This document shows positions 18,001 through 21,000 of a DNA stretch of 64,000 nt, piece after piece. A program made the position numbers. This DNA is from Escherichia phage GER2. The DNA is taken from sequence record MG710528.1; one strand, 5' to 3'. Numbering within the stretch: position 1 is the stretch's first letter; each line of letters opens with the position of its first letter.

Positions 18001-21000
18001 GTAACGACGACGAGGGATTCTACAGCGAGTTGCATGGTCATAACGACCTCCTTTAGCTTTTTCTGAAATTACCACCTCTGATAGTGGTGTCGGGAGGTTC
18101 AGAACGGCCTAAAGAACCGCGGACTTATTCCCCTTACGGGTGTTGTATTCGTCGCCCTCCCGACATTGTTCGGGGATGTGACAGCACATTGTGCTATCAC
18201 TGAATAACAGGCATAAAAAATCCAACACTGACGGGGTTGGTTTTGTCCGCTTTAGAGAGGTTCTGACGCCTCACAAAGATAAATCTACAAGTAACGACCT
18301 ATAACGTCAAGCCCGATCGGTTTCGAGCATTTTTGCATGACGGGCAGCGCCGCGTTCAGTCCAGAGGATGAGGGAACGAACGTTACGGGCAATTTTCACA
18401 GAGTAGTTAAAAGCTACTCTGTGCTTGAACTCACGTAAAGTTTCACCTTCAAGTTTGAAGAAGTGTTTTTCCTCAATGAAACGACCTTTGTTTTCGTGGT
18501 GATTCTGGCGAATACAAATAGCTTCTGTGCCGTAAAGGTGCGCCAAAAGTTCAGTAGTGATAACGGGGATCTGCTTGTAAGTAATCGTGGAGAGTGTTTC
18601 AACAGAAACTTGAGTTGTCATAGTGACGCCTCCGGTTGATGAGTTTTTCATTCACCACCGTCAGGTTCCTAATCATCGGGTGGCGAGACGTACAGGGTTA
18701 GGAACTACCGGATCAACCAACCGGCCAGCCTTTCGGCTGCCCCATACGCCCCACCATAATTCAGATGTGCGTGTGCATACGACAATAAAAAACACGCTCG
18801 CGGCGTGTGTCTGTCGCGGTTGAATATCCGGGGTTCCTAATCCCGACGCCAGATTTTGCTGGCGTGCGGTGAATATAATCCCGGATACCTATTTTTGTCA
18901 AACAACCGTTGCGCATTACACAACAGTCGCTATAATGATTCGCGTAACGCAACAGGAAACAAGCATGATAAAAAGCTGGAAACACAAAGGACTTCAACGT
19001 TTCTTTGAAACAGGAAATGCATCAGGCATAAATCCCAATCACGTTAAACGCCTGAGAACGCGCCTTCAGGTAATAGATCAAGCTGAAATCATTGATGATA
19101 TTAACCTTGCCGGGTACAGGCTGCACCAGTTGCAGGGGGGCAGATCCGATACATGGTCTGTCACCGTCTCCGGTAACTGGAGAATCACATTCGAGTTTCG
19201 GAACGGCGATGCTTATATTCTTAACTACGAGGATTACCACTAATGGCGATGTTTAACCCCCCTCATCCCGGAGAAATTATTGCTGATATTCTGGAAGATC
19301 AGAATATTGGAATCAGGGAACTGGCAAGAGCGCTTGATGTCGCGCCTTCCACTGTTCAGCGACTGGTTTCAGGTAATGCGACAATATCTCCTGAAATGGC
19401 TGTTCGTCTCGCTGCTGTCCTGGGTGGAACTCCGTCTTCATGGATTCGTCTCCAGACGGCATGGAGCCTCGAAAAAGCGGAAAGAGAAGTTGACGTATCT
19501 CATCTCTCAACAAAATACCGCCCGGCAGAAATTTCGCCTCATGCTTAACCACCGCGCCGTCATTCTGGCGGCGTCGGAGAGTGGAGGATATCAGGTTCCG
19601 AACTCTGCTTTGTTCTCCGCCTCCAGGATTTCTTCAATCTTCCGTACTCCCCGATTATTGTATCGAAAGCTTTCTACCTGCTTATCCGAATACGGGGATT
19701 TGTCGATGAACCATTTCCCGTATTGTTCTGTTTTGAGCATGTAGGTATTGGCAATGCGACCGATCTTGTTTGCAGTGACGCCAAACTGTTTACCAACCTC
19801 TGTTGCACTGTAGTGATGTTCATCAAGAACAGGAAGGGGGATAACATTAAAACCAGCAGAACGGTTAATCACTGAGGCGTAAGCAGCCTGTTTCGCCTTG
19901 TCGCCCAGGTGCGGTAAACGATCCAGAACGCTTGAGATAACCTCCATTTCCATTTTCAGCGCTTTAGCTTTGCGGTATTCAGGAAGGCCGTTTGATGGTG
20001 TACTTTTCTCCTGTTTAAGGCTGTAAGTTCCTGTCTCCATCAGGGCTGGGAGGACAACTTCACAAACCCAATCCTGAACCCGTTCTGCCGATGGTAACGA
20101 GCTACGCATGATGAGACGAAAAGCGTCACCTTGGCCAATAAGTTGAATTCCTCGCGGATTGTCACCTAAACCTAATTCTCGCGATTCGCGATAATTAAGT
20201 TTAATCAATGATTTGCAGTGCTTTTTCAATGCGTCCGCCGTGTTGGCGTATCCCAGGGCTTTTGCGAATGGAGCAGCCAGAAACACAGGCTTACCCTGAT
20301 AGAAAGCTGCATCCAGCCCAACGATATTACCCTGTGAGATTTCGCACTCAAAATGTTTGATAATAGATTTCATATCATTTCTCCTGTTGGGGGTTACGCA
20401 AAAGAACGGCGGACGGCTTTCGACTCACGTGCGGCGACGCGAAGCGCTTGTTTATAGGTCATCACAATAACAACCTGATCCGCACCGCCTTTTTTCTTAT
20501 CCATGGGGGTTACGAAAATTTCGTAACCCTCCCCATCAAGTTCATCTTTGATGCGTGCAATGAAGTCGTTGTTGCGTACTTCTTTTTCACCGCACAGTCT
20601 CCGCGCTTCATTCACCATTTTCAACAGAGCCTGGCTGTCGATAGTTCCATTTTTCATTACATTATTTTTCATCGTTTTAACCTCTCAAGCTCGCCGTAGC
20701 GAGTTCAGATAAAAGAAATCCCCGCGAGTGCGAGGATTCTTATTCACCTTTGACGGCAAGTTGCAGGTTAGCCACGACCTTCCTCCTTTGGCTTGTGAAT
20801 TTGTATCGTCATGCCGCTTTGAGTGGTGACTACAACGACAGAACCAGGCTGAAGGCTGTTAAGATTGAATGCTTCGTAAAATGAATCCAAGGCCAGTGCT
20901 TTTTTTATTCTTTCGGTTCCACCAACGCCATCCCTTGCTACAGGCTACACTGACAATCCACTGTCCACTCCTGTAAGCCATATAAAACCAGATGAGCAAA

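What the first reader, a model, noticed from the sequence alone, without database searches (positions are those of the whole stretch)
18622..18900. Conserved structured leader upstream of antirepressor genes, copy A, with compensatory base changes
Two leaders of about 250 nt (this one and 30344..30600) share blocks such as GTACAGGGTTAGGA, CCCCATAC.CCCACCA, GATGTGCGTGT and GGGGT.CCTAATCCCGAC. Where they differ, pairing is kept: the terminator stem is ACACGC/GCGTGT here versus AGACGC/GCGTCT in copy B, and the small hairpin has a GAAA loop here versus UUCG in copy B on the transcribed strand. That is the signature of a selected RNA structure. The boxB-like GAAA hairpin plus terminator suggests a nut/put-type antitermination site or an sRNA with a read-through mRNA form, controlling the antirepressor genes.
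Basis: partly seen in the sequence, partly recalled or inferred. Interest (0 to 1): 0.65.

Follow-up and report, generated by a model that had tools for sequence, protein, structure and literature searches.

The report
P1-type C4/IsrK antisense switch on antirepressors
The two conserved leaders are real structured RNAs, but they belong to a known system: the phage P1 C4 antisense RNA with its upstream partner (IsrK in Salmonella), which keeps prophage antirepressor genes untranslated, here present twice in a Shiga-toxin-type prophage.

Summary
Both leaders lie on the minus strand. Each has a strong sigma-70 promoter, an isrK element (RF01394) ending in an intrinsic terminator, a C4 antisense RNA (RF01695), and then an antirepressor-type gene (copy A ORF6N, copy B Rha). 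All four Rfam hits exceed their gathering scores.

Across 30 related leaders the predicted helices are 99.6% paired, and 11 pairs change on both sides. The stronger signal is long-range. The C4 hairpin-2 loop (b') and its 3' single-stranded stretch (a') co-vary with sites in the isrK element (a1, b1). They also co-vary with sites just after C4 (a2, b2), and b2 covers the Shine-Dalgarno sequence. I found 12 a' types and 12 b' types in 17 combinations.

This is the annotated layout of the phage P1 immI region and of the Gifsy-1 isrK-anrP locus. Copy A is an ortholog of the Gifsy-1 locus.

Its alternative, an sRNA with a read-through mRNA form, matches published IsrK biology.

Verdict: already known, low interest.

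Side finding: the sRNA-Xcc1 elements downstream of each module follow the same two-site logic in front of further antirepressor genes. The papers I read do not describe this.

The parts
18872..18901 (-). Copy A promoter: TTGACA, 18-nt spacer, TATATT (11 of 12 consensus matches)
   Evidence: No LexA-box-like site in this region.
18787..18865 (-). Copy A isrK / a1b1 element. Hairpin 1 at 18846-18865. Hairpin 2 at 18829-18845 shows a1 (UUAGGAAC) in its loop. b1 (UUCAACC) lies within 18817-18825. Intrinsic terminator plus U-run at 18787-18808.
   Evidence: Rfam isrK 68.9 bits (gathering score 50). c4-a1b1 RF03163 44.5 bits (gathering score 46.7). Terminator. Coordinates. Fold.
18676..18761 (-). 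Copy A C4 antisense RNA: a 17-bp outer stem enclosing hairpin 1 (GAAA loop, 18726-18739) and hairpin 2 (18708-18724, loop b' UUGGUUGAU). The single-stranded a' (GUUCCUAA) lies within 18695-18705.
   Evidence: Rfam C4 67.5 bits (gathering score 45). The minimum-energy fold equals the family structure, z = -3.96. Covariation.
18619..18675 (-). Copy A target region: a2 (UUAGGAAC) within 18662-18674, b2 (AUCAACC) fused to the SD GGAGG at 18629-18641, and the start codon at 18621..18619. The 3' strand of the C4 outer stem can instead pair with 18652-18660. That alternative hairpin carries a2 in its loop.
18307..18621 (-). Copy A regulated gene: a 104-aa ORF6N-domain protein, 66% identical to the N-terminal 102 aa of Gifsy-1 AnrP (STM2616).
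   Evidence: Pfam ORF6N E = 1.4e-19. BLASTP E = 1e-44.
30590..30618 (-). Copy B promoter: TTGACT, 17-nt spacer, TATATT (10 of 12 consensus matches)
   Evidence: No LexA-box-like site.
30507..30583 (-). Copy B isrK / a1b1 element. Hairpin 1 at 30564-30583. Hairpin 2 at 30548-30563 carries a1 (UUAGGAC). b1 (CAAUCGAGG) at 30535-30543. Terminator plus U-run at 30507-30528.
   Evidence: Rfam isrK 61.7 bits (gathering score 50). Terminator. Coordinates.
30396..30483 (-). Copy B C4 antisense RNA: hairpin 1 with a UUCG loop at 30448-30461, hairpin 2 at 30426-30447 (b' CCUUGAUUG), and a' (GUCCUAA) within 30415-30424.
   Evidence: Rfam C4 78.9 bits. z = -4.48.
30339..30395 (-). Copy B target region: a2 (UUAGGAC) within 30381-30393, b2 (CAAUCAAGG) overlapping the SD GGAGG at 30350-30361, and the start codon at 30341..30339. 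The 3' arm of the alternative helix is at 30373-30379.
29694..30341 (-). Copy B regulated gene: a 215-aa Rha-family phage regulatory protein.
   Evidence: Pfam Phage_pRha E = 1.7e-30. In phage P13771 it is annotated as 'regulatory protein' in a 786-nt form that starts at the C4 AUG.

Best explanation
Each leader is a P1-immI-type RNA immunity module.

Layout and transcription. A promoter with no recognisable LexA box, probably constitutive, starts a transcript whose first ~77 nt (the isrK / a1b1 element) end in a short intrinsic terminator. Most transcripts should stop there and give a small IsrK RNA. The rest read through into the C4 RNA and the antirepressor mRNA.

Repression. The C4 RNA is compact: a long outer stem with two hairpins. 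It exposes two short recognition sequences, b' in the hairpin-2 loop and a' in a single-stranded stretch. These pair with a2 just after C4 and with b2, which overlaps the Shine-Dalgarno sequence. This blocks ribosome binding, so the antirepressor (ORF6N protein in A, Rha protein in B) is not made in the lysogen.

Relief. The isrK element carries the same two sites (a1 in a hairpin loop, b1 next to the terminator). I think it most likely acts as the cognate partner or decoy of C4. When short IsrK accumulates it occupies a' and b', frees the ribosome-binding site, and lets the antirepressor be made, which pushes the prophage toward induction.

Shown here, by computation only:
- the elements and their order;
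- the conserved helices;
- the three-way co-variation of the sites;
- the overlap of b2 with the SD.

Shown in homologs, from published work:
- C4 represses icd/ant translation through a2/b2 in P1;
- IsrK has short and read-through isoforms;
- IsrK supplied in trans activates AnrP translation and Gifsy-1 induction.

Inferred: that the same events occur in this prophage, that IsrK acts as a decoy, that C4 is processed out of the read-through transcript, and which repressor the two proteins antagonise.
For: Rfam places isrK and C4 in both leaders above their gathering scores. Promoters and terminators are where the model needs them, and no second promoter lies between the terminator and C4.

A pattern scan gave 93 viral-contig loci and 63 distinct leaders, of which 30 site combinations were parsed.
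- There are 12 a' types and 12 b' types in 17 combinations. Cognate a1/a2 sites give 7-8-nt complementary runs in 41 of 42 cases; non-cognate runs average 4.8 and 4.4 nt. Cognate b2 runs are 9-12 nt in 18 of 20 cases; the non-cognate mean is 6.2 nt.
- On alignment A2 the a1:a' helix is 98.6% paired, with 5 of 8 pairs changing on both sides and up to 4 pair types per position. The b1:b' helix has 8 of 9 pairs changing on both sides. The covariation score is 0.505, against at most 0.147 when the partner is slid.
- b2 abuts or overlaps GGAGG in both window copies.

The P1 GenBank record annotates the same order: promoter P1c4, a1, b1, c4 RNA, a2, b2 ('repression of icd ant translation'), icd. Rfam finds C4, c4-a1b1 and a sub-threshold isrK match there.

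In Gifsy-1, isrK (79.3 bits) is followed by C4 (69 bits) exactly where the IsrK paper places 'orf45'/STnc1160, and then by anrP. The activating mutations G28A/G31A and C159U/C162U of that paper (PMC4825925) fall, by my numbering of the Gifsy-1 sequence, in a1 and a'.

The most common class of relatives controls an 80%-identical homolog of P1 Icd.
Against: There are no expression data for this prophage. Every functional step is transferred from P1 and Gifsy-1.

In Gifsy-1, a1 mutations in cis raised basal AnrP translation. A simple decoy model predicts the opposite. The authors instead explain activation by a structural switch that opens the RBS of a short ORF starting inside the C4 5' strand.

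The role of a1/b1 is still labelled 'putative' in the P1 record.

A few natural relatives carry mismatched sites: L002 and L056 at a1, and L070 at b' against both b sites. Perfect matching is therefore not obligatory, or these are recombinants or defective.

The c4-a1b1 model scores just under threshold on copy A (44.5 against 46.7) and does not report copy B.
Confidence: 0.8

Rival explanations
1. The Gifsy-1 model as published. The read-through RNA is locked in an inactive fold by a1:a' pairing in cis. Short IsrK in trans opens the C4 outer stem, so ribosomes translate a small ORF that begins at the AUG in the C4 5' strand. The antirepressor is then made by translational coupling. In this view C4 is not a trans-acting repressor.
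For: There is direct genetics and biochemistry in Gifsy-1 (PMC4825925), and copy A is an ortholog. A conserved alternative helix competes with the C4 outer stem, with 90.6% of cells paired and 2 covarying pairs. In copy B the frame from the C4 AUG runs in frame into the Rha gene.
Against: The ORF is not conserved. It stops after 14 codons in copy A and in P1, after 27 codons in L022, and after 37 codons in some B-type leaders. No Shine-Dalgarno sequence precedes the C4 AUG in either copy, while the antirepressor genes have their own GGAGG overlapped by b2. This model does not explain why b2 and a2 co-vary with b' and a'. The IsrK work itself found the nucleotide sequence of orf45 conserved but its amino-acid sequence variable (as summarised in PMC12197685).
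Confidence: 0.12
2. Control acts mainly on transcription, as in satellite phage P4. There the processed CI RNA pairs with sites before and after itself (seqA, seqC) and causes premature termination. Here, C4 pairing with b1 next to the terminator and with a2/b2 would set the amount of read-through and Rho-dependent polarity rather than translation itself.
For: b1 lies 6-8 nt upstream of the terminator hairpin in both copies. The IsrK authors point to the P4 seqA/CI/seqC analogy and raise this possibility. IsrK in trans raised an anrP transcriptional fusion 8-fold.
Against: b2 overlaps the SD in essentially all relatives, which points to translation as the primary target. The translational effect in Gifsy-1 was 139-fold against 8-fold for transcription. 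Nothing here tests termination.
Confidence: 0.06
3. One reading: a nut- or put-type antitermination site. A boxB-like hairpin would load an antiterminator onto RNA polymerase so that it reads through the terminator.
For: A small hairpin and a terminator lie in a phage early-left region, and read-through of the terminator is needed to express the gene.
Against: There is no boxA within either leader. The hairpin lies downstream of the terminator, not upstream. Its loop switches between GAAA and UUCG while only the stem is kept. The whole unit matches C4 at E = 1e-11 to 1e-14.
Confidence: 0.02

Closest known systems
Phage P1/P7 immI region: c4 antisense RNA with sites a1, b1, a2, b2 controlling icd-ant (Citron & Schuster 1990, cited in PMC8198154; annotated in NC_005856)
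   Same: The order of parts is the same: promoter, a1 in a hairpin loop, b1, terminator-like hairpin, C4 RNA of the same fold, a2 a few nucleotides after C4, and b2 at the ribosome-binding site. The 5' outer-stem sequence AUGGUGGGGCGU is shared. Specificity resides in a'/b'. By my recollection, not checked here, a'/b' differences also underlie P1/P7 heteroimmunity.
   Different: There is no icd gene here; the target RBS belongs directly to an ORF6N or Rha gene. The a/b sequences differ. The host element is an integrated lambdoid Stx-type prophage rather than a plasmid prophage. Two such modules occur in one phage. No C1-type operator was looked for.
Gifsy-1 isrK-orf45-anrP-isrJ locus of Salmonella (Hershko-Shalev et al. 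2016, PMC4825925)
   Same: Copy A is an ortholog. Its leader is near-identical outside the a/b sites. isrK and C4 are both present in Gifsy-1. The downstream protein is 66% identical to AnrP over 104 aa. The short IsrK and read-through isoforms fit the promoter-terminator layout.
   Different: The a/b specificities differ (Gifsy-1 a1 is UUGGCGU; copy A is UUAGGAAC). The 45-codon ORF of Gifsy-1 is cut to 14 codons in copy A. The copy A protein has 104 aa against 187 aa. No isrJ follows; an sRNA-Xcc1 module follows instead. Copy B carries a Rha-family gene.
Satellite phage P4 CI RNA with seqA and seqC
   Same: A processed small RNA from a leader pairs with complementary sites upstream and downstream of itself in the same transcript. 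The IsrK authors call seqA a structural homolog of IsrK.
   Different: According to that paper, P4 acts by premature transcription termination. Here b2 sits on the SD. Homology to P4 was not tested.
Phage P22 immI sar antisense RNA controlling ant
   Same: It is also RNA-level control of an antirepressor gene in a lambdoid phage (from my own knowledge).
   Different: sar is a true cis-antisense transcript from the opposite strand. It has no C4 fold and no two-site code. No sar-like feature was seen here.

Membership tests
C4 antisense RNA (Rfam RF01695) | Covariance-model score at or above the gathering score (45 bits) | tested here: met
   67.5 bits (A) and 78.9 bits (B), both full-length over model positions 1-87
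C4 antisense RNA (Rfam RF01695) | Long outer stem enclosing two hairpins, kept by compensatory change | tested here: met
   The minimum-energy fold equals the family structure, z = -4.0 and -4.5. Helices 4-6 are 100% paired in 30 sequences, with 6 pairs changing on both sides. Caveat: the retrieval pattern fixed part of the 5' strand.
P1-type immI antisense system | a' and b' complementary to a2 and b2 just downstream, with b2 at the ribosome-binding site | tested here: met
   Copy A: GUUCCUAA/UUAGGAAC and GGUUGAU/AUCAACC fused to GGAGG. Copy B: GUCCUAA/UUAGGAC and CCUUGAUUG/CAAUCAAGG overlapping GGAGG. Cognate pairing exceeds non-cognate.
P1-type immI antisense system | A second copy of the sites (a1, b1) upstream of C4 in the same transcript | tested here: met
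   a1:a' is 98.6% paired with 5 of 8 pairs changing on both sides. For b1:b', 8 of 9 pairs change on both sides.
P1-type immI antisense system | Mature ~77-nt RNA released from the precursor by RNase P (from my own knowledge of P1) | not testable with these tools
   Only the sequence-level outer stem and the CCACC-type 3' tail are visible.
P1-type immI antisense system | Target is icd, with ant expressed through coupling to icd | tested here: not met
   The first gene after b2 is an ORF6N or Rha gene. Other relatives do carry an Icd homolog that is 80% identical. This is a feature of the P1 operon, not of the RNA family.
isrK (Rfam RF01394) | Covariance-model score at or above the gathering score (50 bits) | tested here: met
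   68.9 bits (A) and 61.7 bits (B). Gifsy-1 itself scores 79.3.
isrK (Rfam RF01394) | Own promoter, two 5' hairpins and a Rho-independent terminator, upstream of an antirepressor gene | tested here: met
isrK (Rfam RF01394) | Short and read-through isoforms; trans-activation of the downstream gene; Hfq binding | not testable with these tools
   Known only for Gifsy-1 (PMC4825925).
isrK (Rfam RF01394) | A ~45-codon ORF from the C4 AUG ending at the antirepressor start (translational coupling) | tested here: not met
   Copy A has 14 codons and stops 91 nt before the start. In copy B the frame fuses in frame with the Rha gene. No SD precedes the AUG.
c4-a1b1 (Rfam RF03163) | Covariance-model score at or above the gathering score (46.7 bits) | tested here: inconclusive
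   Copy A scores 44.5 bits, just below threshold. Copy B is not reported at E <= 0.1. P1 scores 51.0 and Gifsy-1 48.1. The model covers the same two hairpins as isrK.
Lambda-type nut site (boxA + boxB) | A boxA sequence, followed by a boxB hairpin whose loop sequence is conserved | tested here: not met
   No CGCTCTTA-like match (up to 1 mismatch) lies within 18622-18900 or 30344-30620. The loop varies between GAAA and UUCG.

The most novel reading that the evidence does not exclude
The C4/IsrK two-site 'address code' appears to be a general, recombining immunity code for antirepressor genes, and a second RNA family uses it.

sRNA-Xcc1 (RF02221) is described in the papers I read as a trans-acting, virulence-linked sRNA with unknown or predicted distant targets. 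Here it behaves instead as a C4-like antisense repressor of the antirepressor gene immediately downstream. It has its own promoter, a decoy leader and a site on the SD.

This Stx-type prophage would then carry four RNA-gated antirepressor cassettes (two C4-type, two Xcc1-type). The two C4-type cassettes are only partly orthogonal by predicted duplex energy; the Xcc1 cassettes were not compared. Together they could set spontaneous induction, and so toxin release, and mediate cross-talk between co-resident prophages.
Probability: 0.5. Interest if true: 0.55.

Novelty: already known. Interest (0 to 1): 0.2.

Why it matters
For the finding as given, the main value is correct annotation. These leaders are C4/IsrK immunity modules, not antitermination sites. 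The 261-aa 'regulatory protein' ORF annotated in related Stx phages appears to start inside the C4 RNA.

Two points go somewhat beyond that.

First, the comparison joins two bodies of work that the papers I read keep apart. The 'orf45'/STnc1160 region of Gifsy-1 is a C4 RNA, and IsrK is the a1b1 element of P1. The Gifsy-1 mutational data can therefore be reread as a1:a' pairing.

Second, antirepressors influence prophage induction. In Gifsy-1, AnrP and IsrK drive induction (PMC4825925). In Stx phages, stx is co-transcribed with late genes on induction (PMC8065619 abstract). RNA gates on four antirepressor genes in one Stx-type prophage are therefore a plausible handle on spontaneous induction and on cross-talk between prophages.

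Tried and rejected
- nut/put antitermination. A boxA search found nothing in the leaders, and the hairpin loop is not conserved. Rejected.
- SOS control of the promoters. No CTGT-N8-ACAG site (up to 1 mismatch) lies near either promoter. There is no support for LexA control, and other regulators were not examined.
- A conserved small ORF starting at the C4 AUG. It is not conserved across relatives, so I rejected it as a family feature.
- A duplicated promoter with no RNA function. Covariation rejects this.
- Single-sequence folding of the a2/b2 region gave no significant structure (z = -0.75 and -0.11). The alternative a2-presenting hairpin shows up only by comparison.
- nhmmer with the two window Xcc1 copies found only 7 hits in the loci then held. 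A pattern scan of viral contigs was needed instead.
- The MAFFT alignment A2 is out of register between subfamilies in the a2/b2 region. Those sites were therefore tested with anchored parsing in Python rather than with the count of structure pairs.
- The large protein-database searches and structure prediction were not used. The proteins have clear Pfam domains.
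Full report
**What is there**

Both regions are transcribed from the minus strand. A scan of the whole window against Rfam at gathering thresholds gave an isrK match (RF01394) followed by a C4 antisense RNA match (RF01695) in each leader.

| Copy | isrK position | isrK bits | C4 position | C4 bits |
|---|---|---|---|---|
| A | 18865..18787 | 68.9 | 18761..18676 | 67.5 |
| B | 30583..30508 | 61.7 | 30483..30396 | 78.9 |

- Each unit is preceded by a near-consensus sigma-70 promoter: TTGACA-18-TATATT at 18901..18872 and TTGACT-17-TATATT at 30618..30590.
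- Each isrK element ends in a 6-bp intrinsic terminator plus U-run.
- No other promoter-like site lies between the terminator and C4, so C4 and the gene depend on read-through.
- The genes that follow are a 104-aa ORF6N protein (start codon 18621..18619) and a 215-aa Rha-family protein (start codon 30341..30339).
The small hairpin is hairpin 1 of C4.

**Context**

The window is a short-tailed Stx-converting lambdoid prophage of the Sepvirinae/Oslovirus type. Module B is 99.1% identical to Escherichia phage P13771. Both modules lie in the leftward early region between cI/restriction-modification and int. In P13771 the Rha gene is annotated as a 786-nt ORF that begins at the AUG inside C4.

**Is the structure selected?**

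I scanned viral contigs for the pattern ATGGTGGGNNGTATGGGGC. This gave 93 loci and 63 distinct leaders. Thirty distinct leaders, including both window copies, were aligned as A2.
- For the Rfam structures of isrK and C4, 99.6% of 1257 cells are standard pairs. With the partner slid, the figure is 36-50%.
- Eleven pairs change on both sides. None of 500 shuffles reached the observed covariation score.
- The terminator stem, hairpin 1 of isrK and the tetraloop hairpin of C4 all show compensatory changes.
- Caveat: the retrieval pattern fixes 17 bases of the C4 5' strand, so that part cannot vary.

**The main feature: a two-site code**

The C4 hairpin-2 loop (b') and the single-stranded stretch between hairpin 2 and the outer stem (a') are hypervariable. 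Each variant is matched by complementary sequences at four places:
- a1, in the loop of isrK hairpin 2;
- b1, between that hairpin and the terminator;
- a2, a few nucleotides after C4;
- b2, fused to the Shine-Dalgarno sequence.

| Copy | a' | a1 and a2 | b' | b1 | b2 |
|---|---|---|---|---|---|
| A | GUUCCUAA | UUAGGAAC | GGUUGAU | UCAACC | AUCAACC-GGAGG |
| B | GUCCUAA | UUAGGAC | CCUUGAUUG | CAAUCGAGG (one G-U pair) | CAAUCAAGG-AGG |

- Across the relatives there are 12 a' and 12 b' variants in 17 combinations.
- Cognate a sites give 7-8-nt runs in 41 of 42 cases, against non-cognate means of 4.4-4.8 nt.
- Cognate b2 sites give 9-12-nt runs in 18 of 20 cases, against a non-cognate mean of 6.2 nt.
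- On A2 the a1:a' helix is 98.6% paired, with 5 of 8 pairs changing on both sides. The b1:b' helix has 8 of 9 such pairs. The covariation score is 0.505, against at most 0.147 for slid partners.
- A few mosaics break the rule: L002 and L056 at a1, and L070 at b'.

A further conserved helix pairs the 3' strand of the C4 outer stem with a sequence downstream of a2. It places a2 in a hairpin loop and competes with the C4 fold. It is 90.6% paired with two covarying pairs.

**Comparison with known systems**

The GenBank record of phage P1 annotates, in the same order: promoter P1c4, 'putative a1' and 'putative b1' sites, the 77-nt c4 RNA, a2 and b2 ('repression of icd ant translation'), and icd. 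Rfam finds C4 (68.8 bits), c4-a1b1 (RF03163, 51 bits) and a sub-threshold isrK match (35 bits) on that stretch. The isrK model and the c4-a1b1 model therefore describe the same element.

In Gifsy-1, where IsrK was studied, isrK (79.3 bits) is followed by C4 (69 bits) and then by anrP. C4 lies exactly where the paper places 'orf45'/STnc1160. The leader of copy A is almost identical to that of Gifsy-1 outside the a/b sites, and its protein is 66% identical to AnrP.

The IsrK paper reports several results (PMC4825925):
- a short terminated IsrK and a read-through mRNA that is translationally silent;
- 139-fold activation of AnrP translation by IsrK in trans;
- activating mutations G28A/G31A and C159U/C162U with partial compensation;
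- dependence of Gifsy-1 induction on the isrK promoter.

By my numbering of the Gifsy-1 sequence, those mutations lie in a1 and a'. The authors compare the system with P4 seqA/CI/seqC but do not call the region C4. A 2025 review lists IsrK and c4 as separate entries (PMC12197685).

**Mechanism**

The best-supported reading is the P1 mechanism. C4 pairs through a'/b' with a2/b2 and blocks ribosome binding at the antirepressor gene. The isrK element, carrying a1/b1, is its cognate partner.

I favour a decoy role for short IsrK. This fits the trans-activation seen in Gifsy-1 and its loss in a1 mutants. It does not easily explain why a1 mutations in cis raise basal expression. One way to reconcile the two would be that a1:a' pairing is needed for proper folding or maturation of C4. 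That is speculation.

The published alternative is translational coupling through a small ORF that starts at the C4 AUG. It is not a conserved feature:
- the frame stops after 14 codons in copy A and in P1, after 27 codons in L022, and after 37 codons in some B-type leaders;
- no SD precedes that AUG.

A P4-like effect on termination cannot be excluded.

**The two copies in one phage**

Predicted duplex energies favour cognate pairs. For example, b':b2 is -15.6 kcal/mol for C4-B on its own site, against -8.9 on site A. The separation is incomplete: C4-A on B sites gives -10.1 and -9.1, against -10.1 and -10.2 on its own sites. Some cross-regulation is therefore possible.

**What the relatives regulate**

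Genes downstream of C4-type leaders include the following:
- Rha and ORF6N proteins;
- an ORF6N+P22_AR_C protein;
- a 76-aa protein with a weak 'Derepression' family match;
- small proteins, the commonest of which is 80% identical to P1 Icd.

**Rejected readings**

There is no boxA and no LexA-like box in the leaders.

**Side finding**

Directly downstream of each regulated gene sits an sRNA-Xcc1 match (RF02221; 18164..18081 and 29560..29477). Each is followed by another ORF6N gene (17373..18041 and 28764..29438, minus strand).
- Each has its own promoter (18310..18282 and 29681..29652).
- By eye, each has a short leader ending in a hairpin plus U-run.
- Xcc1 has the same overall shape and model length as C4.
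- Its hairpin-2 loop and 3' single-stranded stretch are complementary to sites both in that leader and at the SD of the next gene. In module B, ACUACUUG matches CAAGUAG twice, and GUUUUGAG matches CUCAAAAC and CUCAAAA.
- In 82 distinct Xcc1 modules from viral contigs, 74% have a piece of at least 6 nt from the hairpin-2 part with an exact complement in both flanks. The figure for non-cognate combinations is 3.2%. The downstream site abuts an SD-like motif in 54 of 61 cases.
- Ten of ten sampled downstream genes carry antirepressor-type domains: AntA, KilA-N, P22_AR_N, Bro-N, Rha or ORF6N.
- Papers as recent as 2025 treat sRNA-Xcc1 as a trans-acting sRNA with predicted distant targets (PMC12189769). 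The APSE phage paper only notes that it lies upstream of an ORF6N gene (PMC7313666). In EDL933 it is abundant and poorly covered by ribosomes (PMC5331693).

**Verdict**

The element is a member of families already in Rfam and already characterised in P1 and Gifsy-1. Novelty: already known. Interest is low. The exceptions are the link between the IsrK and c4 literatures and the Xcc1 side finding.

Noticed in passing
window 18081-18310 (-) and 29477-29681 (-), with genes 17373-18041 (-) and 28764-29438 (-): Each sRNA-Xcc1 (RF02221) copy sits in its own C4-like module: promoter, short leader with a hairpin and U-run, Xcc1, then an ORF6N gene. The Xcc1 hairpin-2 loop and 3' stretch are complementary to sites in the leader and at the SD. 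In 82 distinct modules from viral contigs, 74% show this in both flanks, against 3.2% for non-cognate combinations. Ten of ten sampled downstream genes are antirepressor-type. The papers I read do not describe this.
   Followed up: partly
L216 (Gifsy-1, NC_010392) 34131-34214 (-): The 'orf45'/STnc1160 region of the published isrK-orf45-anrP locus is a C4 antisense RNA (69 bits). P1's a1b1 region also gives a sub-threshold isrK match. Rfam keeps isrK outside the C4 clan, although it covers the same element as c4-a1b1.
   Followed up: yes
L054 about 6026-6140 (+); window 30350-30372 (-): In one relative, a 7-nt unit (CACCAAT, which overlaps part of b2) is repeated about ten times in tandem between a2 and b2. 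Window copy B has two copies (CAAUCAC CAAUCAAGG). These could be extra partial C4 binding sites or replication slippage.
   Followed up: no
L002, L056, L070 (viral contigs): These are natural mosaics in which a1 (L002, L056) or b' (L070, against both b1 and b2) does not match its partners. They may be recombinants between specificity types, possibly derepressed or defective.
   Followed up: no
window 18965-19548 (+): A HigB-like toxin gene and an HTH antitoxin gene (a type II toxin-antitoxin pair) are transcribed divergently from the copy A promoter region.
   Followed up: no
window 31096-33515 (-): A BsuBI/PstI-type restriction endonuclease gene lies just upstream of module B. The adjacent 489-aa ORF corresponds by position to a gene annotated 'DNA methylase' in P13771; I did not scan it myself. 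Both lie between the repressor region and the early-left genes.
   Followed up: no
window 21693-21740 (-): A DicF-like antisense RNA match scores below threshold (35.3 bits against a gathering score of 48; E = 1e-4) in the early-left region.
   Followed up: no
window 41457-41670 (+) and 13216-13287 (-): A full-length STnc100 sRNA match scores 195 bits. A tRNA gene also matched at 13216-13287 (-); it may mark the prophage integration site, which I did not check.
   Followed up: no
window 30885-30903 (-): Upstream of the copy B promoter, the sequence CGCGCCCUUACACAGGGC contains a boxA-like word followed by a 5-bp hairpin (GCCCU UACAC AGGGC). It resembles a nut-type boxB and may be the phage's real nutL. 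This was seen by eye only.
   Followed up: no
window 19591-20373 (-): A third antirepressor-type gene (Bro-N domain, 260 aa) lies next to module A, with no Rfam-detectable C4 or Xcc1 element upstream.
   Followed up: no
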